Assembly (NCBI GenBank): GCA_964431835.1
Contig: CAYSKO010000001.1
Location: 137,743 to 201,742, forward strand
Reading direction: 5' to 3'
DNA length: 64,000 nt
From: an uncultured Planctomycetia bacterium
GTDB lineage: Bacteria > Omnitrophota > Gorgyraeia > 2-02-FULL-51-18
Positions within the stretch are counted from its first letter, which is position 1, and each line of letters opens with the position of its first letter. Shown here piece by piece: positions 9,488 through 20,575 of the stretch. The position numbers and the translations under genes were made by a program. The notes under the pieces were generated by a model, which saw only the letters and a program-made list of their open reading frames with translations, was not told where the DNA came from and searched no databases.

Positions 9488-11761
9488 GTGAGTATGGATA
9501 GATTTGTTCGTTTCGTCGGTGCGGCCGTTCTCTTTTTCGGGTTTTTCGGTTCCGTGGCGGATGCGGCGGATCCGCGTCTGATTCTCTCGAAGGGGAAGGC
9601 GTCGTTCGGAACGCAGGACACGCGGCGCGGGGGCTCACCCGAAAGCCTGCAAGCCGCCGAAACCGCCCAAGCCGCCGCTATCTCGCACAAGAACGCACTC
9701 CAGGAACCTTCTAATTTTCTTTCCGCTCAAGCCGCCCCCTCTTTGATCGAGCCGTCCGTGACGGCACCGACCCAGGTCGGCTGGTCGGGCGGCAGCACGT
9801 ACCCCGCGATCGTCTACGATCCGAAAATCCGCGGCCGGGCGTATACGCTTTCGGATTCCTCCGGCTTCTATCGCTCCGAAAACGGAGGCGCTACGTGGCA
9901 AGCCGCCAATCAGGGCGTCGTGAACCTCGCGGTCGCGTCGCTCGCCATCGCCCCGTCAAATTCCAACGTTCTCTACATGGGTTCGACCGCCGGCGTGCAC
10001 CGCTCGAACGACGCCGGAAAGACCTGGACCTTCTCCGAGGCGTCGCGCGGGAAGATCCCGTTTAAAAGGCTCGCGAGTTACAAGGCGCTCGCCGTCGACG
10101 CGCTGAACGTCAATAAAGTGTACGCGGGCTCCTCGGCTGGCCAGGTGTTCCATTCCGCCGACGGGGGAACGAGCTGGACGCAGGTGGGAACGCTCGCCAT
10201 CGGCGTGCCGGTGAGCGCGCTCCACCTGACGCGCGACGGCAGGCTCTTCGCCGGTTCTTCGAAAGGCCTCATGACGTACCAGGGCGGGACGTGGCAAAAG
10301 GTCGCACTCAAGAGCGACCACGTGTACGACATCGTCTCGATCATGCACAACGGCAAGGAGACGCTTTACGTCACGAACGGCCGCAACGTCGCTCATTCGA
10401 GCGACCTCGGCGTCCCGACGGTGTGGTGGTACGCCGGCATGGTGCCGAAATTCAACGCCGCGACGGACGGATGGATCAACCGCATCGCGGTGAGGCAGCA
10501 TCCGAGAACCGGCAAGGTCGAGGTGCTCGCGTCGCTTAAAAAGGACTGGAACGGCCGCCTTTTCCTGGGTACGAACCACGGCGAGTCGTGGAAGGAGATC
10601 GGTCTCAATTTCAACAACGACCCTCTCGCGAATCCGACGCGCGAGTGGAAGAAAAGCGGCGCGAACCAGTGGCTCGCCGTCGCGTTCGACCCATTCAATA
10701 CCGAGACGTTCACGATCGCCGACGACTGGGGCCTCTGGAAGACGACCGACTCCGGCGCGAGCTGGAACGAAAGCATCGCGGGCACGCCCAACGTGATGGG
10801 GACCTCGATCGTTCGCGATCCGCTCACGGGCACTTATCTCGTGGGCACGATGGACAACGGCCTGGTCGAGCTGAATCCGCAGACGGGCGCGATGAAGGCG
10901 GTGTTTCCGAACGCCTCGACTCCCTGGCAGCTTCATGGCCACGTCTGGAAGGCGGAAGTGCTTCCGAACGGAAACCGGATTCTTGCGGTTTCGCCTTGGA
11001 ACAGTGCGTCGAACGTCGTGGTCGTGGTGCGTCCCGACGGAACGACGGCCCTCGCGAACGGCCTTCCGGCGCTCTATCCCAAGACGAACACCGTCTGGGA
11101 GAAGGGCTACATGCGCACGCTCGCGGTCGATCCGTCGAACCCGGATAAACTTTACCTGGGAATCGACGGCAACGACGGCGGCGGACTTTACGTCTCCACG
11201 GACGGGGGGCTCAACTGGGCGCGTTCCGCGGGTCAGCCCGCGTCGCTCCGTGTCTACAACGGCCTCGCGGTCGATCCCGTCGAAACGAACCGCCTTTTCT
11301 GGGGAGCGATGGGTTCCGGCGGTGGCGTGTACCGTTCGCTCGACGCGGGCGGTACGTGGACGCGCGTGTTCACCGGCTCCTACAACGTCTCGGACGTGGT
11401 CGTCGGCCCGGATCAAACGGTGTACGCCGGAGGCGATACCGGTGGCCCCGCGCTTTACGTTTCGCGCGACAAGGGCGCGACGTGGGGAATGCTTAAGAAA
11501 TTCGAAGGCACGGGCACGCTTCAGGCGATCACGATCGACCCGAACGATCCCAAGCGTATGGTCGTGAGCTCCCGCAAATGGGGCGACTCCACGGGCGCGA
11601 AAGTCTATTTCACGGCGGACGCCGGAAAGACGTGGAAGGAAGTCGCCGCAACCGGCCTGCCTAATACGTCCGGAGCCGCGGACGCCGTTTTCAGCCAGGA
11701 CGGAAAATCGCTGTATCTTCTCATGACCGCCGGTTCTCTTTACCAGGTACCGCTCCCGTGA
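9488..11761 (+). CDS. Secreted BNR/Asp-box repeat protein (sialidase/GH74-like double beta-propeller), paralog 1
   Basis: Signal peptide plus at least 8 S-x-D-x-G-x-T-W motifs (SENGGATW, SNDAGKTW, SADGGTSW and others). An ATG at 9494 is an alternative start. Confidence 0.65.
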   Translation: MSMDRFVRFVGAAVLFFGFFGSVADAADPRLILSKGKASFGTQDTRRGGSPESLQAAETAQAAAISHKNALQEPSNFLSAQAAPSLIEPSVTAPTQVGWSGGSTYPAIVYDPKIRGRAYTLSDSSGFYRSENGGATWQAANQGVVNLAVASLAIAPSNSNVLYMGSTAGVHRSNDAGKTWTFSEASRGKIPFKRLASYKALAVDALNVNKVYAGSSAGQVFHSADGGTSWTQVGTLAIGVPVSALHLTRDGRLFAGSSKGLMTYQGGTWQKVALKSDHVYDIVSIMHNGKETLYVTNGRNVAHSSDLGVPTVWWYAGMVPKFNAATDGWINRIAVRQHPRTGKVEVLASLKKDWNGRLFLGTNHGESWKEIGLNFNNDPLANPTREWKKSGANQWLAVAFDPFNTETFTIADDWGLWKTTDSGASWNESIAGTPNVMGTSIVRDPLTGTYLVGTMDNGLVELNPQTGAMKAVFPNASTPWQLHGHVWKAEVLPNGNRILAVSPWNSASNVVVVVRPDGTTALANGLPALYPKTNTVWEKGYMRTLAVDPSNPDKLYLGIDGNDGGGLYVSTDGGLNWARSAGQPASLRVYNGLAVDPVETNRLFWGAMGSGGGVYRSLDAGGTWTRVFTGSYNVSDVVVGPDQTVYAGGDTGGPALYVSRDKGATWGMLKKFEGTGTLQAITIDPNDPKRMVVSSRKWGDSTGAKVYFTADAGKTWKEVAATGLPNTSGAADAVFSQDGKSLYLLMTAGSLYQVPLP

Positions 11762-14378: not shown

Positions 14379-15290
14379 GTGAAGGACATCAATTTAGAGA
14401 TAGTGCGCGTCACGGAGGCGGCGGCGATCGCCGCGGCTTCGTGGGTGGGGAGCGGGAACAAGAAAGCCGCCGACAAAGACGCGACCGACGCGATGCGCGT
14501 GCGTCTCTCGGCAATCGACTTCCGCGGCCGCGTGATCATCGGCGAAGGCATCAAGGACGAGAGCGCGGGCCTCTTCGCGGGGGAAACGGTCGGATGCGGC
14601 GGGGAGAAGTCTAAGATCTACGACATCGCGGTCGATCCGATCGAGGGGACGCGGCCCACGGTCCAGTCCGGGCCGGAGGCGCTGAGCGTGCTCGCGGTGG
14701 CGGGCAAGGACGCGCTTTTTTCGACCGCCGAATTCTACATGAAGAAGTTCGCCTACGGCCCCGCGATTGCGGAGAAGACGAAGCTCTCCATCGCGGACCC
14801 TCTTCCCGAGACGATCCGGAAGATATCCGCGGCGACGGGGAAGGACCCCGGCCGGGTCATGGTCTGCGTGCTCGACCGCCCTCGCCATGAAGGCCTGATC
14901 GCTGAGCTGCGCTCGCTCGGGACCCGCATCAAACTGATCCAGGACTGCGACGTCTCGGGCGGCATCGCGACGTGCCTCGAGCGAAGCGGCATCGACCTTC
15001 TCTGCGGCATCGGCGGCTCACCGGAAGGCGTTATCACCGCCTGCGCGATCAAATGCCTGAAAGGGGACTTCCAGGCGCAGATCGTGAAGAAGGACGGCAC
15101 GGTGGAACAGCGCGTCCTCGGCCTCGAAGATCTCGTTAAGGGTCCGTGCGCATTCGCAGCGACGGGAATCACCGACGGCAGCCTTCTTCGCGGTGTCCGC
15201 TTCGATCCTTCCGGCCCCCGCACCCACAGCGTTTTCATGCGCTCGATCAGCGGAACGATCCGCTGGATCAGCGCCTCCCACGGAAACTAA
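14379..15290 (+). CDS. glpX: Fructose-1,6-bisphosphatase class II
   Basis: N-terminus LEIVRVTEAAAIAAASWVGSGNK and the metal-binding region are GlpX-like. Confidence 0.85.
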   Translation: MKDINLEIVRVTEAAAIAAASWVGSGNKKAADKDATDAMRVRLSAIDFRGRVIIGEGIKDESAGLFAGETVGCGGEKSKIYDIAVDPIEGTRPTVQSGPEALSVLAVAGKDALFSTAEFYMKKFAYGPAIAEKTKLSIADPLPETIRKISAATGKDPGRVMVCVLDRPRHEGLIAELRSLGTRIKLIQDCDVSGGIATCLERSGIDLLCGIGGSPEGVITACAIKCLKGDFQAQIVKKDGTVEQRVLGLEDLVKGPCAFAATGITDGSLLRGVRFDPSGPRTHSVFMRSISGTIRWISASHGN

Positions 15291-15396
15291 CGCCCTCACG
15301 ACCTCCGGCCCGAGTTTTCTCCTTCCGTTATATTAATATCCGCTTAACCGAGCCGTAACATGGCGCGGCTATACTCCACATCAGAAAGCGGAGATC

Positions 15397-16086
15397 ATGG
15401 AAGAAAAGCGTCAGCTCGAGGTTCTTTACCAAATCAGCCGGGAACTCGTGGGGAAGCAGGATCTCGACGCGATCCTGCAGCAGGTGGTCAGCATGACCTC
15501 GCAGTTGATCGATTCCAAGATTTGCTCTTTGATGCTCCTGGACACCAAACGGGAGCGACTCGTCATCAAGGCGACGCAGAGCTTGAGTCTCGCCTACAGG
15601 GATAAGCCGCCGATCCGCGTGGGCCAGAGCGTGAGCGGGCAGGTGGTATCGCGCAAGGAACCGATCCAGGTCGCCGACGTGTCGAAAGATCCGCTTTACG
15701 GGTACCCGGACCTCGCGCGGCAGGAGGGGTTCAAATCGCTGCTCTGCGTTCCGCTCCTTCTGGCAGACAGGGTGATAGGGGTGCTGAACTCCTACACGGA
15801 AGCGGAACGGACGTTCTCAAAAGAGGAGGTCCAACTTGTTCAGACGGTTGCGAATCAGGCGGCTATGGTCATCGAGCACGCCCGGCTTATCTCCGAGGAA
15901 GCGCAAGCCCGTCTCTCGCTCGAGACGAAAAAGGCGGTGGACGCGGCCAAGCGGCTCCTGATCAAGTCGCGCGGAATGTCGGAGGAGGACGCGCACCGGT
16001 TCATCCAGAAGGCCAGCATGGAGAAGAACAGGCCCCAGAAGGAAATCGCCGACGCGATCCTGATGGCGGCCGATCTGACGAAGTGA
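15397..16086 (+). CDS. GAF-ANTAR RNA-binding antiterminator-type regulator
   Basis: GAF core, then a C-terminal ANTAR helix region (AVDAAKRLLIKSRGMSEEDAHRFIQKASMEKNRP). TATACT at 15370-15375 gives a 21-nt leader. Confidence 0.7.
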   Translation: MEEKRQLEVLYQISRELVGKQDLDAILQQVVSMTSQLIDSKICSLMLLDTKRERLVIKATQSLSLAYRDKPPIRVGQSVSGQVVSRKEPIQVADVSKDPLYGYPDLARQEGFKSLLCVPLLLADRVIGVLNSYTEAERTFSKEEVQLVQTVANQAAMVIEHARLISEEAQARLSLETKKAVDAAKRLLIKSRGMSEEDAHRFIQKASMEKNRPQKEIADAILMAADLTK

Positions 16087-16198
16087 ACGGACGGTTTTAA
16101 AAGAACGAACGACCGATGGGGATAATGACGTCCTTATCTTGAAGAGGCCGAAGGCGGCTTCCTCGGGGTAAGGATTTTTTCATTCATAGGAGGCAGCG

Positions 16199-16342
16199 AT
16201 GAATAACGCGGTTTACGGTCTCACGGAAAAAGCGGTTTCGATCTGGATGCGGATCAACGAACGAATGGCGGAGGACGAACGGCGCCGGGAAAACGAAAGG
16301 GTGTGGATGATCTGCACGACCGACCGCGGAGCGAGAGCCTGA
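16199..16342 (+). CDS. Candidate 47-aa small ORF in the 290-nt leader between the ANTAR gene and the PII genes
   Basis: Strong SD TAGGAGG 7 nt upstream of ATG. Stop TGA is in frame with the downstream PII gene. Confidence 0.25.
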   Translation: MNNAVYGLTEKAVSIWMRINERMAEDERRRENERVWMICTTDRGARA

Positions 16343-16378
16343 GGTGCTCACCGGAGAGAAGGACGCGGGGCCGTCCGC

Positions 16379-16729
16379 GTGAAGGAAGTGATGGCTGTCG
16401 TGCGCCCCGGAAAAGCGCGCGAGACGATGGAAGCGCTTGCGCGGATGGGCTGCCCCGCCTCGACCTCTTTTCGCGTGTTCGGACGCGGCCGGCAGAAAGG
16501 CCTGCGCTACGCCTCCGCCGAAATCGGCGCCCAGGAGATCACGGTCCGGTATCTTCCCAAGAAAATGATTCTTTGCGTCGTGCCCGACCGGCACTGGCGC
16601 GCGACGGTGCAGACGATCATCCGAGTCAACCAATCCGGCCAGTTCGGCGACGGCAAGGTGTTCGTCTCCGATATCAGGGAAACCTGCCGTATCCGCACCG
16701 GCGAAACTCAGGATGCCGCGCTTCGATGA
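16379..16729 (+). CDS. PII-family (GlnB-like) signal transduction protein, divergent, member 1
   Basis: T-loop GRGRQKG and B-loop GQFGDGKVFVSDI. An ATG at 16391 is an alternative start. Confidence 0.7.
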   Translation: MKEVMAVVRPGKARETMEALARMGCPASTSFRVFGRGRQKGLRYASAEIGAQEITVRYLPKKMILCVVPDRHWRATVQTIIRVNQSGQFGDGKVFVSDIRETCRIRTGETQDAALR

Positions 16730-17043
16730 AGATGATCAAGGCCGTGATACGGCCCGAAAAGGAATTCGACGTGGTCGGAGGTCTCGAGAAAGAGGGGTTC
16801 AATTCGCTCACGAAGCTCGACGTGCTCGGCAGGGGTCGCCAGAAAGGCGTGCGCGTCGGCGGAGCCGTTTACGACGAGCTCGCGAAGCTCCTCATTTACA
16901 TCGTCGTCGAGGACAAAGACGCGTCGCGTGTCGTCGAGACGATCAAGAAGCACGCGCACACGGGAAACTTCGGCGACGGAAAGATATTTATCTCCGACGT
17001 CCGCGAAGCCTACACGATCCGGACTGGAAAAAACCGCCTTTAG
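16726..17043 (+). CDS. PII-family signal transduction protein, divergent, member 2
   Basis: MKMIKAVIRP, GRGRQKG and GNFGDGKIFISDV. ATGA overlap with the upstream PII stop. Confidence 0.7.
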   Translation: MKMIKAVIRPEKEFDVVGGLEKEGFNSLTKLDVLGRGRQKGVRVGGAVYDELAKLLIYIVVEDKDASRVVETIKKHAHTGNFGDGKIFISDVREAYTIRTGKNRL

Positions 17044-17103
17044 CATGATTCTGGTCGAAATGCGTCTCGGCCCCCTCCTCATCCTACCGCGCCTTGCCAC
17101 CGG

Positions 17104-18149
17104 ATGATCGGCTCCGAAGCGGCGCTCGCGGCGGTCCTTTCGCACGCGCCCCGTCCGAAATCCGTTTCTGCGCCACTTCTTGCCGCGCTCGGGCACGTCG
17201 CGGCCCGCGACGTGAAATCTCCGCAGCCTTCGCCTCTCTTCGATAATTACGCGATGGACGGTTTCGCTTTTTCATCGGCATCGTCGGCCACCGCGGCCGC
17301 CGGGTCGCCGGTGCGGCTCCGGGTGACGGGCGCCGTCCGCGCCGGAGACGCCGTCGGGCCTCTCGGTTCCGGCGAAGCGGTGCGCATCATGACCGGAGCG
17401 GCCCTGCCTTTCGGCGCGGACACCGTGCTCCCGAATGAACGCGTGCTGACCGACCGGGATACGCTCGTCCTCCTCGAACCTGTCCGAGCGGGCGAGAACG
17501 TGCGTTACCGTGCGGAGGAATTGAAGAAAGGCGACGTCCTGCTACGCAAAGGCGCTCCGATCCACGCCGCCGCGGTGGGGATTCTCGCGGGCTTCGGGAT
17601 CCGGACGGTGGAAGCGTACGAATTTCAGCGTGTCGCGGTGATCGCGACTGGAAATGAACTGCGCTCGCCCGGAGAGGCGCTCGGCCCCGCGCAGATCTAC
17701 AATTCGAATTCCTGGATGATCCACGCGGCGCTCGTCCAAATGGGTATCCGGCCGATGTTTTGCAAACGCGTGGGGGATCACGCGGTCCACATCAAGAGGC
17801 TTCTCAAGTTCGCGCTCGCCCAGGCCGACGTCGTCATTTTGAGCGGGGGCGTTTCCGTGGGGGGCGCGGATCCGGTGAAGCCCCTCCTCCGAGACCTCGG
17901 GGTGCGTACGCTCTTTTGGAAGGTGAGCCAGAAACCCGGGAAGCCCCTTTTTTTGGCAAGCTCTCGAAGACGCTCGTCTTCGGCCTTCCGGGCAATCCGG
18001 CGGCGGTGTTCACCTATTTTTACGAGTACGTTTATCCCGCGATCCGCCGCATGTCCGGATTCGAGGAGCCGCGCCTGCGCCGCGAAGAGCTCGCGGTGGA
18101 AGAGCCGGTCGCGTCCGATCCCGAGAAATCCCTCAGCGCGCGCGAATAA
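17104..18149 (+). pseudogene. moeA: Molybdopterin molybdotransferase MoeA, reading frame broken by a 1-nt indel in a T7 run (17948-17954)
   Basis: NYAMDGFAF, GDHAV, KPGKPL in frame 1, then FFGKLSKTLVFGLPGNP in frame 0. Restoring a T8 gives a contiguous MoeA. Confidence 0.6.
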
Positions 18150-18167
18150 AAAGAGGGACCTCAAGAT

Positions 18168-18232
18168 CCATTAGAATCCTCTAATCCGCGTTTAATCCCT
18201 CTCTAATGCGCACTGTGCAATAATCTTCTCGC
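18168..18232 (+). promoter_or_regulatory. AT-rich phased TAATC-hexamer module (copy D), moeA to BNR paralog 2
   Basis: TTAGAATCCtcTAATCCgcgttTAATCCctctcTAATGC, then TGTGCAATAAT. Confidence 0.4.
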
Positions 18233-18289
18233 TCGACAATTTCCAAACCCATTTACCAGCATCTACAGTCATCCACAGGGGCGCCCTCC

Positions 18290-20575
18290 ATGAAAAGAAA
18301 TTCAGCTCTTTTTCTCTGTCTGGTCGTCGGTCTCCTTCACGCCCAGCTCGCTTGGGCCGTCGATCCCCGCGAGCTTCTCCTGCGCAGCAAGAAACATTTC
18401 CTCCAACAGGAAGGTCCCCGCGGCGGAGGCGAGTCCCCGGATCAGCTCGTCGCGAAGGAGGGGTCGAAGCAGGAGCTCATGGACAAACAAAACGCGCTTA
18501 CCACGCTCGCGCCCGAGCCCATTCAGGTCCGCGCGTCGAACGAGCTGACGCAGGCCGCGGTCGCGCCACCTAAGCAGCTCGGCTGGTCGGGTGGCAGCAC
18601 GTACCCTACGATTTATTACGACCCCGTGATCCGCGGTCGCGCGTACGCGCTCTCGGACTCGTCCGGTTTTTACCGTTCCGACGACGGCGGCGCGAACTGG
18701 TACGCTTCCAACAAAGGCATCCATAACCTCACGATTTCGTCCCTTACGGTCGCGCAAACCGACCGCAACGTCCTGTATGCCGGTTCCAATTCGGGTATCC
18801 ACCGCTCGACCGACGGCGGACGCAACTGGACCTATTTCGCGAATACCTCGAACATCACGTTCCGCCGGCTCCAGAGCTACCGCGCGATCGCGCTCAGCCC
18901 GACGAACCACTGGACCGCGTACGCGGGTTCGGGCATGGGCCAGGTTTACGAGAAGCGAAGCGGACAGACGAATTGGACGCAGATGGGCAGCCTGCATCCA
19001 GGGGTCGCGGTCAGCGCCGTGCACGTGGCGCGCAACGGCCGCATTTTCGCGGGCTCGGCGAACGGGCTTTTCCTTTGGAACGCCACGAACAGCACGTGGC
19101 AGAAGATCGCACTCGAATCGAACGTCGGGGCGTTCGACGTCGTTTCTCTTTGGGAGAACAACGTCGAGACGATTTTCGTGACGAACGGGCTCAAGGTGGC
19201 GCGTACGACGGACACCGGCACGCCGGCCCAGTGGACCTACACGGCCGCGATGCCGCGTTACGACGCTTCCTCGGCGGGCGAGGCGAGCCGCTTGGCGGTG
19301 CGCCGCACGGCCAACGGGCAGCTTCAGATGTTCGTGGGCCAGAAACGCAGCTGGCAGGGCAAGGTTTACATGACGACCGACTCCGGCGCCACGTGGCGCA
19401 GCATGAACACCGGCTTCGTGAACGACCCGGCGCAGAATCCGACGCGTGTCTGGAAAAAGAACGCGGGCGTTCCGGTCTCAGTGTCGTTCGATCCGTTCAA
19501 CGCGAACACGCTTTATTTCTCGGACGATTGGGGAATCTGGAAATCCACCGACAACGGCGTGACGTGGCGTGAGAGCGTGAAGGGGACGCCGAACACGATC
19601 GGCACTTCGCTCGCGTTCGACCCGCGCACCGGCACTTACCTCGTTGGCACGATGGACAACGGCCTCGTCGAGGTGAATCCGACGACCGGCGCGACGAAGG
19701 CGGTTTTCCCGAACGCCTCCACGCCCGCGCATTACCACGGACACGTGTGGCGCGTCGAAGTGGCGGCGAACGGCAACCGCGTCCTCACGGTCTCTCCGTG
19801 GAACGCCGCTCAGAGTTACGTCGTCGTCATCAAACCGGACGGGACCACTTCGTTCGCGACCGGACTGCCGACGTGGTTCCCTAAAGTGAACACGGTTTGG
19901 GAGAAGGGCTATCCGCGCGGATTCGTGAAGGATCCCACGAACGGAAACCGCTTCTACCTCGCGATCGACGGCGACGACGGCGGCGGCCTGTGGGTTTCGA
20001 ACGACGCGGGGCTCAGCTGGTCGCGTCTGGGGAATCCGTCCTCGAAGAGAATCTACAACGGTCTCGCGGTCGATCCGTCCTCGCCGAACGTCCTCTATTG
20101 GGGGACGATGTGGGCGAAGGAGGCAGGCGGCATCTTCCGGTCGACAAACTCCGGCGCCACGTGGTCGAAAGTTTTTTCCGGGAATCCGAACATCGCGGAC
20201 ATCGTCGTCGGTCCGACCGGCGTCGTTTACGCGGGGGGCGAGGCGGCAGGCGTGGCGACGGTCTACGTTTCGAGGGACCGCGGAACGACGTGGAGCGTCT
20301 TAAAGACTTTTGCGGGCCAGACGGGCGGCCCGGCGCAGGGTCTCGCCATCGACCCCGCGAATCCTCAGCGGATGGTCGTCAGCCAGCGCAAATGGAACGA
20401 TTTCACGGGTTCGAAGATCTGGCTCACGGAGGACGGCGGAGTGAACTGGCGCGAAGTGGCTACGGCGACCCTTCCGAACACCGCCGGCCACGTCGAGGCG
20501 CAGTTTTCGGCCGACGGCAATTCGCTCTTCGCCCTTCTCAACAACGGCACGCTCTACCACGTGCCGCTGGTCTAA
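18290..20575 (+). CDS. Secreted BNR/Asp-box repeat protein, paralog 2 (same architecture as 9488-11761)
   Basis: Signal peptide and SDDGGANW, STDGGRNW, TTDSGATW, STDNGVTW repeats. Co-linear with paralog 1. Confidence 0.65.
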   Translation: MKRNSALFLCLVVGLLHAQLAWAVDPRELLLRSKKHFLQQEGPRGGGESPDQLVAKEGSKQELMDKQNALTTLAPEPIQVRASNELTQAAVAPPKQLGWSGGSTYPTIYYDPVIRGRAYALSDSSGFYRSDDGGANWYASNKGIHNLTISSLTVAQTDRNVLYAGSNSGIHRSTDGGRNWTYFANTSNITFRRLQSYRAIALSPTNHWTAYAGSGMGQVYEKRSGQTNWTQMGSLHPGVAVSAVHVARNGRIFAGSANGLFLWNATNSTWQKIALESNVGAFDVVSLWENNVETIFVTNGLKVARTTDTGTPAQWTYTAAMPRYDASSAGEASRLAVRRTANGQLQMFVGQKRSWQGKVYMTTDSGATWRSMNTGFVNDPAQNPTRVWKKNAGVPVSVSFDPFNANTLYFSDDWGIWKSTDNGVTWRESVKGTPNTIGTSLAFDPRTGTYLVGTMDNGLVEVNPTTGATKAVFPNASTPAHYHGHVWRVEVAANGNRVLTVSPWNAAQSYVVVIKPDGTTSFATGLPTWFPKVNTVWEKGYPRGFVKDPTNGNRFYLAIDGDDGGGLWVSNDAGLSWSRLGNPSSKRIYNGLAVDPSSPNVLYWGTMWAKEAGGIFRSTNSGATWSKVFSGNPNIADIVVGPTGVVYAGGEAAGVATVYVSRDRGTTWSVLKTFAGQTGGPAQGLAIDPANPQRMVVSQRKWNDFTGSKIWLTEDGGVNWREVATATLPNTAGHVEAQFSADGNSLFALLNNGTLYHVPLV

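What the first reader, a model, noticed from the sequence alone, without database searches (positions are those of the whole stretch)
15397..18174. GAF-ANTAR regulator, 290-nt structured leader, tandem divergent PII-like pair, then moeA
Two adjacent PII-superfamily genes (16379-16729 and 16726-17043, ATGA-coupled) carry the GRGRQKG T-loop and GDGK(I/V)F B-loop. They are clearly divergent from GlnB/GlnK and are not next to amtB or nif genes. Tandem PII pairs are otherwise known mainly as NifI1/NifI2.

They sit behind a GAF-ANTAR RNA-binding antiterminator gene and a 290-nt leader. The leader holds a strong-SD 47-aa ORF and a hairpin plus U-tract near 16150-16180. moeA (Moco biosynthesis) follows.

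The arrangement suggests a nitrogen or nitrate-responsive module in which the ANTAR protein controls PII expression by antitermination. I have not seen this combination described.
Basis: partly seen in the sequence, partly recalled or inferred. Interest (0 to 1): 0.6.

Follow-up and report, generated by a model that had tools for sequence, protein, structure and literature searches.

The report
NifI-like PII pair behind ANTAR attenuator
This short gene cluster is a stripped-down copy of a nitrate-assimilation operon seen in related uncultured bacteria: it keeps an RNA-binding antiterminator, its RNA switch, a tiny conserved gene and two nitrogen-sensor proteins of the kind so far known only for switching off nitrogenase, which suggests an undescribed role for such sensor pairs in nitrate and nitrite reduction.

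Summary
Three points need correcting.

1. The two PII genes belong to the NifI clade, not GlnB/K. PII-B groups with NifI1 (99% bootstrap) and PII-A with NifI2 (70%).
2. The "290-nt leader" is two things. The first is a ~65-nt attenuator in which a hexaloop hairpin (AAUGAC: A1, G4) competes with an intrinsic terminator for GUCCUUA. The second is a conserved 47-aa gene.
3. moeA is frameshifted in a T7 run and lacks its C-terminal domain.

Related loci explain the arrangement. In Omnitrophota-like MAGs the same 229-aa GAF-ANTAR gene and the same attenuator precede nirB-nirD-PIIA-PIIB-(narK)-nasA-(nrtABCD), or precede nrtABCD. The same type of PII pair also sits beside nitrite reductase and narK genes in a Nitrospirae MAG and in one other metagenomic lineage, where no ANTAR gene is nearby. 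The window has no nir, nas, nrt or nif gene in 64 kb, so it holds a reduced version of this operon.

Most likely mechanism: the GAF-ANTAR protein antiterminates. The PII pair forms a NifI-like heterotrimer that senses 2-oxoglutarate and ATP/ADP and throttles nitrite/nitrate reduction or uptake.

I found no description of NifI-type pairs in nas operons, and no characterised GAF-ANTAR protein. I rate this a new variant of known kinds. All function is inferred.

The parts
15397..16086 (+). GAF-ANTAR one-component regulator, 229 aa
   Evidence: Pfam GAF, GAF_2, GAF_3 and ANTAR. It is 72-84% identical to more than 80 'GAF and ANTAR domain-containing protein' clusters, named only from Omnitrophica/Omnitrophota MAGs. 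The GAF part is closest to the PtsP/EI-Ntr GAF (3trc, 1.3e-14) and to the NifA-like Nlh1 GAF. The ANTAR part hits Rv1626 and NasR.
16115..16138 (+). P1 hairpin (antiterminator). 5' arm GAUGGGGAU at 16115-16123, hexaloop AAUGAC at 16124-16129, 3' arm GUCCUUAUC at 16130-16138
   Evidence: It is the fold of the leader RNA truncated before the terminator 3' arm (ensemble frequency 0.85). The five core pairs form in 10 of 10 related leaders, and only wobble-compatible changes occur. The loop is AANGAM, with A1 and G4, in 10 of 10.
16144..16161 (+). P2 hairpin, which is also the apical stem of the terminator. GAGGCCG / AAGG / CGGCUUC
   Evidence: It forms in both the nascent and the full-length folds. 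A 6-9 bp GC-rich hairpin is present at this position in all 10 leaders, with a 3-6 nt loop (core AUGA, UGA or AAGG). Formal covariation is not significant.
16130..16180 (+). Intrinsic terminator. Lower stem 16130-16142 pairs with 16163-16175, then a U-tract at 16175-16180
   Evidence: Full-length fold -32.4 kcal/mol, z = -4.2. The lower stem is 99% paired across 10 leaders, with 2 pairs changed on both sides. It shares GUCCUUAUC with P1.
16199..16342 (+). Conserved small ORF, 47 aa, with Shine-Dalgarno AGGAGG at 16188-16193
   Evidence: Related small ORFs (motif ..S/G-h-W-h-x-x-x-E..R-V-x-M) follow the terminator in L011, L020a, L042 and L049, and a similar ORF lies farther downstream in the L019 leader. 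The ORF is fused to NirB in L017 and lies between nirD and PII-A in L015. Library relatives are a 43-aa protein at 67% identity and a 50-aa protein at 50% identity. It has no Pfam or NCBIfam hit.
16379..16729 (+). PII-A, a NifI2-like PII protein (116 aa from GTG 16379, or 112 aa from ATG 16391)
   Evidence: Pfam P-II. The best solved relative is 9p1x_G, M. acetivorans NifI2, at 1.3e-24. The nearest database relatives outside its own small group lie in nif clusters. It groups with NifI2 at 70% bootstrap. It has a short T-loop insertion and the VNQ(S/T)G motif.
16726..17043 (+). PII-B, a NifI1-like PII protein, 105 aa, overlapping PII-A by ATGA
   Evidence: The best solved relative is 9p1x_H (NifI1) at 8.5e-32, against about 1e-19 for GlnB-like chains. 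It groups with NifI1 at 99% bootstrap. It shares the 4-residue shorter T-loop and the YT(I/V)RTG C-loop. More than 100 homologue clusters are 60-90% identical.
17104..18149 (+). moeA, a probable pseudogene. Frameshift in the T7 run 17948-17954, and the 3' end is truncated
   Evidence: MoeA_N plus part of MoCF_biosynth are in the first frame (residues 5-287). The next 43-62 matched residues are in the frame of ORF 17760-18149. Model coverage ends at about 344 of ~400 and there is no MoeA_C. The same 356-aa ORF is called on JGI and Logan contigs.

Best explanation
The region is a reduced copy of a nitrate/nitrite-assimilation operon type found in Omnitrophota-like bacteria.

Step 1, shown by sequence comparison. 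In relatives, a 229-aa GAF-ANTAR gene is followed by a conserved ~65-nt attenuator and usually a ~50-aa small gene. Then come nirB-nirD-PIIA-PIIB-(narK)-nasA-(nrtABCD). In the window, nirBD and nasA are absent. The attenuator and small gene directly precede the PII pair, and a broken moeA follows.

Step 2, inferred from structure prediction and from the known ANTAR mechanism. The nascent leader folds into two hairpins. P1 has the hexaloop AAUGAC. P2 lies 5 nt downstream. P1's 3' arm, GUCCUUAUC, is also the 5' arm of the terminator's lower stem. Without protein, the longer terminator forms and transcription stops at U6. When the GAF domain is in its active state, the ANTAR dimer binds the P1 and P2 loops and holds P1 closed. 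The terminator then cannot form and RNA polymerase reads into the small ORF, PII-A and PII-B. The GAF ligand is unknown. Candidates are 2-oxoglutarate or glutamine, as for the related PtsP and NifA GAF domains, or nitrate/nitrite.

Step 3, inferred by homology to NifI1/NifI2. PII-B and PII-A assemble into a 2:1 heterotrimer that binds ATP/ADP and 2-oxoglutarate. When 2-oxoglutarate is low, the complex clamps onto a target through the PII-A T-loop. In relatives the likeliest targets are the flanking, translationally coupled NirBD or NasA enzymes, or the nitrate transporter. This would be a post-translational shut-off of nitrate assimilation, analogous to nitrogenase switch-off.

In this genome the target must be encoded elsewhere, or has been lost.
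For: Gene content and domains.

Closest relative L010 (PII-A 66%, PII-B 90% identity) reads nirD(ATGA)-PIIA-PIIB-nasA N-terminus.

Full operons: L011/L012, L013, L015 and L019. NirB scores above the curated cut-off, 888 against 578 bits.

ANTAR and leader linkage: the ANTAR gene sits directly upstream of the conserved leader in 10 of 10 leader copies. The leader precedes nirB in eight cases, nrtA in one, and the small ORF and PII pair in the window.

Leader model: the covariance model finds exactly one copy in the window (65 bits) and one per ANTAR gene elsewhere.

P1 and terminator competition. The A1/G4 hexaloop is the published ANTAR recognition rule (PMC3369931).

NifI affiliation.

NifI mechanism: a 2:1 heterotrimer in which the NifI2 T-loop is the main target contact and 2-oxoglutarate plus ATP release it (PMC12439982 and bioRxiv 10.64898/2025.12.07.692841).

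The same pair type lies next to nitrite reductase and narK in a Nitrospirae MAG (L064) and in L066/L067, without ANTAR.

Window content: no nir, nas, nrt, nif, narK or amtB homologue in the window.

Selection: pairwise dN/dS is 0.06-0.23, and the window copies are not clearly faster than those of L010.
Against: - Nothing here is experimental.
- In the window the presumed targets are absent within 64 kb and moeA is broken, so the module may be idle here.
- The P2 loop is 3-6 nt with a core AUGA, UGA or AAGG. It is not a strict A1/G4 hexaloop.
- P1, not P2, overlaps the terminator, which differs from the canonical ANTAR layout.
- The leader family is shallow (effective number of sequences 2.75). 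Covariation tests for P1 and P2 are not above the controls. The terminator stem is only marginal, with 20-24 of 500 shuffles reaching the observed value.
- A sigma-70-like match (16097-16126) overlaps P1. If it were used, P1's 5' arm would not be transcribed. However, 1 match was found against 0.7 expected.
- Several ANTAR-nirBD operons lack the PII pair (L020a, L042, L049, L058), so the pair is optional.
- All comparison loci are metagenomic contigs or MAGs.
Confidence: 0.6

Rival explanations
1. Relic. In this genome the cluster is a decaying leftover of a nas operon.
For: There are no nir, nas or nrt genes in 64 kb. moeA is frameshifted and truncated. The PII-A start codon and Shine-Dalgarno arrangement look disturbed. 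The neighbours are unrelated housekeeping genes.
Against: The ANTAR gene, attenuator, small ORF, PII-A and PII-B are all intact and keep every conserved ligand-site residue. dN/dS is well below 1, and the window copies show no consistent acceleration relative to L010, which lies in an intact context. The junctions are clean (36-nt and 60-nt spacers) with no gene fragments.
Confidence: 0.25
2. Autonomous module. ANTAR-controlled expression of a PII pair is itself the functional unit. The pair acts on targets unrelated to nitrate reduction, for example molybdenum cofactor supply or general nitrogen control.
For: The arrangement exists in several assemblies. The pair is under purifying selection. 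moeA follows the pair here, and a moeA gene lies downstream of the nrtABCD operon at the end of locus L020.
Against: No second locus has ANTAR-PII-PII without nirBD. Every other pair examined lies in a nitrite/nitrate assimilation gene cluster, and where the flanks are visible it directly adjoins nitrite reductase, nitrate reductase or narK genes. moeA is broken.
Confidence: 0.15
3. Feedback on the regulator. The PII heteromer binds the GAF-ANTAR protein, as GlnB and GlnK act on NifA and NifL, and feeds nitrogen status into antitermination. It does not act on enzymes.
For: The GAF domain resembles the NifA-like and PtsP GAF domains. The regulator and the pair are the components retained together in the window.
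Against: The pair occurs without ANTAR in L064 and L066. ANTAR operons occur without the pair in L020a, L042, L049 and L058. The two modules are therefore separable.
Confidence: 0.1
4. Plain terminator. The hairpin and U-tract simply end the ANTAR gene's transcript, and the downstream genes have their own promoter. There is no antitermination.
For: The hairpin lies 44 nt after the stop codon. A sigma-70-like match overlaps P1. Covariation for P1 is not statistically demonstrable.
Against: The complementary 5' arm and the AANGAM loop upstream of the terminator are conserved in 10 of 10 leaders, whereas the sequence just 5' of them is not. The motif travels with each ANTAR paralogue (L020 has two genes and two copies). 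It fits the published ANTAR rule.
Confidence: 0.1
5. True NifI1/NifI2. The pair regulates a nitrogenase encoded elsewhere in the genome.
For: The best solved matches are NifI2 and NifI1. JGI names the homologues 'PII 1' and 'PII 2'.
Against: There is no nif gene in the window. All close relatives are in nas clusters, not nif clusters. The gene order is reversed. The PII-A T-loop insertion is much shorter than in nif-linked NifI2 proteins, and that loop is the main NifDK contact.
Confidence: 0.05

Closest known systems
NifI1/NifI2 (PII pair that switches off nitrogenase in methanogens and some anaerobic bacteria; PDB 9p1x)
   Same: Both are two adjacent, co-translated PII genes. One product is 105 aa with a shortened T-loop and the YT(I/V)RTG C-loop. 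The other is longer, with a T-loop insertion and the VNQTG motif. The window pair clusters with NifI1 and NifI2 in the tree (99% and 70% bootstrap). All residues for ATP/ADP and 2-oxoglutarate binding are kept.
   Different: The window pair is not in a nif operon, and no nif gene lies nearby. The gene order is reversed, with the NifI2-like gene first. The T-loop insertion is only about 3-7 residues, against roughly 15-30 in the NifI2 proteins compared. Relatives are embedded in nirBD-nasA or narK clusters, so the target is presumably different.
NasR (NIT-ANTAR) and NasS/NasT (ANTAR) nitrate-responsive antitermination of nasF and nirBD leaders
   Same: An ANTAR protein is encoded next to a nitrate-assimilation operon whose leader carries a hexaloop hairpin plus an intrinsic terminator (PMC3369931, PMC10783516, PMC3795266).
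   Different: The sensor domain is GAF, not NIT or a NasS partner. The A1/G4 hexaloop hairpin is the one that overlaps the terminator's 5' arm, while the second hairpin is the terminator's own tip. In the window the regulated genes are PII genes, not nas genes.
Cyanobacterial PII (GlnB) control of the NrtABCD nitrate transporter (PDB 8wm7; PMC10945777) and PII effects on nitrate/nitrite assimilation in mycobacteria (PMC11001197)
   Same: A PII protein sensing 2-oxoglutarate throttles nitrate assimilation post-translationally.
   Different: Those are canonical homotrimeric GlnB-type proteins encoded away from the operon. Here a dedicated NifI-type pair is encoded inside the operon.
GnfK/GnfR of Geobacter sulfurreducens (REC-ANTAR antitermination of nitrogen-fixation genes; PMC2995071)
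   Same: ANTAR-mediated read-through of terminators in leaders of nitrogen-metabolism genes.
   Different: GnfR is a response regulator with a kinase partner. Its RNA motif differs (CAGGCAANGGCGCC). Its glnB gene was not under antitermination.

Membership tests
ANTAR antiterminator system | Protein carries an ANTAR domain (PF03861) C-terminal to a sensor domain | tested here: met
   ANTAR 2.9e-14 at residues 170-222, and GAF at residues 22-159.
ANTAR antiterminator system | Target RNA has two small hairpins, each with a hexanucleotide loop carrying A at position 1 and G at position 4 (PMC3369931) | tested here: inconclusive
   P1 meets the rule: its hexaloop AANGAM has A1 and G4 in 10 of 10 leaders. 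P2 is present in 10 of 10, but its loop is 3-6 nt (AUGA, UGA or AAGG core) and read as a hexaloop it usually starts with G. No match in Rfam.
ANTAR antiterminator system | The dual-hairpin fold is mutually exclusive with an intrinsic terminator | tested here: met
   P1's 3' arm at 16130-16138 is also the terminator's 5' arm. The leader RNA truncated before the terminator 3' arm folds as P1+P2, and the full leader folds as the terminator. The terminator stem is 99% paired in 10 leaders. Layout differs from the canonical one, because here P1, not P2, overlaps the terminator.
ANTAR antiterminator system | Protein binds the RNA and causes read-through in response to a signal | not testable with these tools
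   This needs EMSA, in-vitro transcription or genetics.
NifI1/NifI2 PII pair | Two adjacent PII genes whose products group with NifI1 and NifI2 rather than with GlnB/GlnK | tested here: met
   NJ tree with 500 bootstraps: PII-B with NifI1 at 99%, PII-A with NifI2 at 70%, and all four groups against GlnB/K at 98%. Best PDB hits are 9p1x_H and 9p1x_G.
NifI1/NifI2 PII pair | Encoded inside a nif operon (nifH-nifI1-nifI2-nifDK, or next to nifB/nifEN) | tested here: not met
   No NifH, NifD, NifK or NifEN homologue in the window at tblastn E<=1e-3. Relatives lie in nirBD-nasA or narK clusters. The gene order is reversed relative to L003, L004 and L007.
NifI1/NifI2 PII pair | NifI2 has a long T-loop that contacts NifDK | tested here: not met
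   The PII-A insertion is only about 3-7 residues, against roughly 15-30 in the four nif-linked NifI2 proteins aligned.
NifI1/NifI2 PII pair | Forms a 2:1 NifI1:NifI2 heterotrimer and inhibits dinitrogenase, with relief by 2-oxoglutarate plus ATP | not testable with these tools
   This is biochemistry. Only the ligand-site residues could be checked, and they are conserved.
GlnB/GlnK canonical PII | A 112-aa protein with a canonical T-loop (Tyr51), grouping with GlnB/K and often linked to amtB or glnA | tested here: not met
   The window proteins are separated from the GlnB/K sequences at 98% bootstrap. The T-loop is shortened in PII-B and lengthened in PII-A, and the residue aligned to Tyr51 is Ser in PII-A. 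There is no amtB in the window.
NasR / NasS-NasT nitrate-responsive antiterminators | NIT sensor domain, or a NasS partner, sensing nitrate or nitrite | tested here: not met
   The sensor is a GAF domain. The ANTAR part matches NasR only weakly (4akk, 8e-5).
NasR / NasS-NasT nitrate-responsive antiterminators | Controls the leader of a nitrate/nitrite assimilation operon | tested here: inconclusive
   This holds by position in 9 related leader copies, before nirB or nrtA. In the window the downstream genes are the small ORF and the PII pair only.
MoeA molybdopterin molybdotransferase | Complete MoeA_N, MoCF_biosynth and MoeA_C domains in one reading frame | tested here: not met
   There is a frameshift at 17948-17954. 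Coverage ends at about position 344 of ~400 and MoeA_C is absent. All NCBIfam scores are below the cut-offs.

The most novel reading that the evidence does not exclude
NifI-type heterotrimeric PII complexes are not specific to nitrogenase. A sister set of pairs, encoded inside nirBD/nasA/narK operons in the Omnitrophota-like MAGs, a Nitrospirae MAG and one further metagenomic lineage of unknown taxonomy, would clamp and switch off assimilatory nitrite or nitrate reductase, or nitrate uptake, when 2-oxoglutarate is low. In the Omnitrophota-like lineage the whole operon is gated by a one-component GAF-ANTAR antiterminator whose RNA site can be read directly from the sequence. The window's orphan copy would then mean that the pair also has a target encoded elsewhere.
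Probability: 0.35. Interest if true: 0.75.

Novelty: new variant of a known kind. Interest (0 to 1): 0.6.

Why it matters
NifI1/NifI2 are treated in the literature I could search as dedicated nitrogenase inhibitors. Their structures bound to NifDK appeared only in 2025. Finding the same kind of pair built into nitrate/nitrite-assimilation operons in more than one lineage gives a concrete, testable case of the NifI design being retargeted. The short PII-A T-loop is the obvious specificity element.

It also gives the GAF-ANTAR architecture, which reviews up to 2025 list without any characterised member, a defined regulon and a defined RNA site. The layout is unusual in that the hexaloop hairpin itself competes with the terminator.

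The window copy has regulators but no enzymes. It is either a snapshot of operon decay or a hint of a further target.

Tried and rejected
- **Rfam.** A scan of 15000-18400 at E<=10 found nothing.
- **Simple terminator scan.** It missed the hairpin. The one promoter-like hit is no more than chance expectation.
- **Metagenome scan with the terminator pattern.** It gave 38 stretches. Only L042, L049, L058 and L060 (the same place as L011) belong to the family.
- **L029/L062.** They resemble the motif (49 bits with the model) but have no ANTAR or nir genes and no long ORFs near the motif, so I excluded them.
- **Covariation.** With both the MAFFT and the model-based alignments, P1 and P2 show only one-sided changes and do not beat the shuffles. 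I therefore do not claim covariation support for them. My earlier impression that P2 covaries rests on individual folds with shifting register.
- **Alternative AUAA/UUAU pairing around P1.** I rejected it because it breaks in L017 and L020b.
- **P0121.** This variant of PII-A has no gene on record.
- **L068.** This contig carries one of the closest ANTAR relatives (83% identity) and ends 82 nt after the gene, before any motif. Its upstream MFS transporter is not identifiable as NarK.
- **dN/dS.** dS is saturated, so the values give only a rough argument.
- **Literature.** Six searches found no paper on NifI-like pairs in nas clusters and none on a characterised GAF-ANTAR protein. The library lacks most subscription journals, so absence is not proof.

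Full report
**Observation**

- A GAF-ANTAR protein is encoded at 15397-16086.
- Two P-II family proteins are encoded at 16379-16729 and 16726-17043. They share an ATGA overlap and carry the GRGRQKG and GDGK(V/I)F motifs.
- MoeA domains begin at 17104.
- The 292-nt gap between the ANTAR gene and the first PII gene holds a long hairpin that runs into six U residues at 16175-16180. The hairpin has an energy of -32.4 kcal/mol, z = -4.2, and none of 200 shuffles folds as well.
- The gap also holds a 47-aa ORF with an AGGAGG ribosome-binding site.

One correction applies at this level. MoeA homology changes reading frame in a run of seven T at 17948-17954 and ends at 18149, about 60 residues short, with no MoeA_C domain. 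The same 356-aa ORF is called on JGI and Logan contigs. I cannot tell whether those assemblies are independent.

**What the PII genes are**

The nearest relatives of PII-A outside its own small group are proteins that JGI names 'PII 2'. They lie in genuine nif clusters, next to nitrogenase (Oxidored_nitro) genes and in some loci NifH, and follow a 105-aa PII gene. PII-B has more than 100 homologue clusters at 60-90% identity, and the few that carry a JGI name are called 'PII 1'.

Against solved structures, PII-B matches NifI1 of the Methanosarcina acetivorans nitrogenase-PII supercomplex (9p1x_H) at 8.5e-32. GlnB-type chains score about 1e-19. PII-A matches NifI2 (9p1x_G) best, at 1.3e-24.

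In a neighbour-joining tree with 500 bootstraps:
- PII-B-type proteins group with NifI1 at 99%.
- PII-A-type proteins group with NifI2 at 70%.
- All four groups separate from GlnB/GlnK at 98%.

PII-B shares the four-residue shorter T-loop and the YT(I/V)RTG C-loop of NifI1. PII-A shares VNQ(S/T)G and a T-loop insertion with NifI2. That insertion is only about 3-7 residues, against roughly 15-30 in the NifI2 proteins aligned. The pair is therefore of NifI type, not GlnK-like, and not a separate new PII group.

**Context in relatives**

The closest relative (L010; PII-A 66% identical, PII-B 90%) reads: 3' end of nirD, overlapping PII-A by ATGA, then PII-B, then the CxxCGVGC N-terminus of a nitrate-reductase-like molybdoenzyme.

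Longer contigs give the full picture:
- L011/L012: GAF-ANTAR, leader, a 50-aa ORF, nirB, nirD, PII-A, PII-B, nasA, nrtABCD.
- L013 and L019: the same core. L019 has a narK-like gene between PII-B and nasA.
- L015: narK-like, nirB, nirD, small ORF, PII-A, PII-B, nasA.

NirB scores above its curated NCBIfam cut-off (888 against 578 bits). The molybdoenzyme matches NasC/NasA-type models below their cut-offs.

The GAF-ANTAR proteins of these loci are 72-79% identical to the window's. The family numbers more than 100 clusters. Where named, they are 'GAF and ANTAR domain-containing protein' from Candidatus Omnitrophica/Omnitrophota. The genome collection labels some of the MAGs Planctomycetia.

The ANTAR module and the PII pair are separable:
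- L020 has two ANTAR paralogues. One precedes nirBD, an Fe-S/membrane protein and a molybdoenzyme. The other precedes nrtABCD. Neither operon has a PII pair.
- L042, L049 and L058 resemble the first of these.
- A Nitrospirae MAG (L064) has a fused NirB-NirA-like nitrite reductase, then PII(115 aa), PII(105 aa), then a NarK-like MFS transporter (narK), with a sigma-54 activator and no ANTAR gene.
- L066/L067 have four PII genes in a row between a small siroheme-domain protein and narK-nasA-nirA.

So the PII pair is a module of nitrite/nitrate-assimilation clusters in several lineages. The GAF-ANTAR gene and its leader form a separate module that gates such operons in the Omnitrophota-like lineage.

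The window carries both modules but none of the enzymes or transporters. tblastn with NirB, NirD, NasA, NrtA-D, NarK, NirA, AmtB and NifHDK/EN finds nothing in 64 kb. The remaining genes are ordinary housekeeping genes.

**The leader**

Ten leader copies align well: the window, L011, L013, L017, L019, L020 (two copies), L042, L049 and L058. Three of them were found with a search pattern that specified only the terminator arms.

Invariant or nearly invariant elements are:
- a 5' arm (U)AGGAU;
- a hexaloop AANGAM;
- GUCCUUAYYUU;
- a GC-rich apical hairpin;
- RUAAGGRY followed by at least five U.

The sequence immediately 5' of these elements is not conserved.

In the window:
- P1 is 16115-16123 paired with 16130-16138, with loop AAUGAC.
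- P2 is 16144-16150 paired with 16155-16161.
- The terminator's lower stem is 16130-16142 paired with 16163-16175.

RNA truncated before the 3' arm folds as P1 plus P2 (ensemble frequency 0.85). The full RNA folds as the terminator. The L011 and L020 leaders behave the same way.

The loop of P1 has A at position 1 and G at position 4 in all ten copies. This is the published recognition rule for ANTAR proteins (PMC3369931).

A covariance model built from the ten copies finds exactly one site in the window (65 bits). It finds one per ANTAR gene in the other loci, and none in L010, L015, L064 or L066. Pattern counts agree.

Caveats on the leader:
- The family is shallow. P1 and P2 vary only on one side, and neither exceeds the shuffling controls.
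- The terminator stem has two pairs changed on both sides, with 20-24 of 500 shuffles reaching the observed values.
- The P2 loop is 3-6 nt with an AUGA, UGA or AAGG core, not a strict A1/G4 hexaloop.
- The layout departs from the canonical one. Here the A1/G4 hairpin overlaps the terminator's 5' arm, and the second hairpin is the terminator's tip.

**The small ORF**

The 47-aa ORF lies downstream of the terminator, so it is not part of the switch.
- Related peptides (..S/G-h-W-h-x-x-x-E.. and ..R-V-x-M-x-C-V..) are encoded at the same place in L011, L020a, L042 and L049, and a similar ORF lies farther downstream in the long L019 leader.
- The peptide is fused in frame to the NirB N-terminus in L017.
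- It lies between nirD and PII-A in L015 and L016.
- In L013 it is reduced to a five-codon tail.
- An exhaustive phmmer search finds a 43-aa protein at 67% identity and a 50-aa protein at 50% identity.

It is a real, uncharacterised small gene of these operons.

**Mechanism proposed**

Shown: gene content, homology, conserved synteny, conserved RNA elements, and predicted alternative folds.

Inferred:
1. The GAF-ANTAR dimer binds the P1 and P2 loops of the nascent RNA and keeps GUCCUUAUC sequestered. The terminator then cannot form and transcription continues.
2. The GAF domain sets the activity. By sequence it is closest to the PtsP/EI-Ntr GAF (3trc, 1.3e-14) and to NifA-like GAF domains. From general knowledge, those domains respond to glutamine or 2-oxoglutarate. 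Nitrate or nitrite sensing is equally open.
3. PII-B and PII-A form a 2:1 heterotrimer like NifI1/NifI2. In NifI the NifI2 T-loop makes most target contacts, and ATP-Mg plus 2-oxoglutarate release the complex (PMC12439982; bioRxiv 10.64898/2025.12.07.692841).
4. In full operons the target is NirBD, NasA or the nitrate transporter. The siroheme nitrite reductase gene is the most constant immediate neighbour of PII-A.

For the window itself, either the target is encoded elsewhere or the cluster is a relic. Pairwise dN/dS of 0.06-0.23, and no consistent acceleration relative to L010, argue against long-standing decay. dS is saturated, so this is a weak test.

**Comparison with known systems and novelty**

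- ANTAR control of nitrate assimilation is known for NasR and NasS/NasT. Those use other sensors and the canonical hairpin layout.
- PII control of nitrate uptake is known for cyanobacterial GlnB acting on NrtC/NrtD (PMC10945777).
- NifI pairs are described only as nitrogenase regulators.
- Reviews up to 2025 list GAF-ANTAR as an architecture with no characterised member.
- Six full-text searches found no paper describing NifI-like pairs in nas clusters. The library omits most subscription journals, so this is absence of evidence only.

I class the finding as a new variant of known kinds. My confidence is about 0.6 in the overall reading and about 0.35 in the strongest form, in which the pair is a NifI-like switch for nitrite/nitrate reduction.

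Noticed in passing
window 17104-18174 (T-run 17948-17954; homology ends 18149): moeA is frameshifted in a T7 homopolymer (T8 would restore ...KPGKPLFFGKLSKTLVFGLPGNP...). It also lacks the C-terminal MoeA_C domain, and an AT-rich stretch with no homology follows. This could be a true pseudogene or, for the frameshift only, an assembly error.
   Followed up: partly
window 16199-16342; also L011 4693-4845, L015 7484-7654, L017 6467 onward: This is a conserved ~45-55-aa protein of unknown function in these nas operons. It is found before nirB, between nirD and PII-A, or fused to the NirB N-terminus. It has no Pfam or NCBIfam family.
   Followed up: partly
L066 5772-7318 and L067 5773-7318: Four PII genes stand in tandem (107, 117, 115 and 105 aa). 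That is two successive pairs, with the short gene first in the upstream pair and last in the downstream one, between a 232-aa siroheme-domain protein and narK-nasA-nirA.
   Followed up: no
L020 698-1472 and 10001-10779: Two GAF-ANTAR paralogues lie on one contig, each with its own copy of the leader. One gates nirBD plus an Fe-S/membrane subunit and a NasC-like molybdoenzyme. The other gates nrtABCD. A moeA gene starts at 19509.
   Followed up: partly
L018 128-820: A GAF-ANTAR homologue (75% identical) has no leader motif downstream. An ORF that reads like a methionine sulfoxide reductase (not tested against any family library) follows directly, so not every family member has a cis target.
   Followed up: no
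window 16379 vs 16391: The PII-A start is ambiguous. GTG at 16379 reproduces the conserved MKE(I/V) N-terminus. ATG at 16391 is the codon preceded by a good Shine-Dalgarno sequence (AAGGAAG). In relatives the start overlaps the nirD stop, so the loss of nirD may have disturbed translation initiation.
   Followed up: no
window 9488-11761 and 18290-20575: Two large paralogous BNR/Sortilin-type repeat proteins (757 and 761 aa) flank the region, one on each side.
   Followed up: no
L029 9096-9174 and L062 458-509: A sequence closely resembling the leader (49 bits with the model; its P2 loop AAGGAA has A1 and G4) lies in a stretch with no long ORFs near the motif and no ANTAR or nir genes. Its origin is unexplained.
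   Followed up: partly
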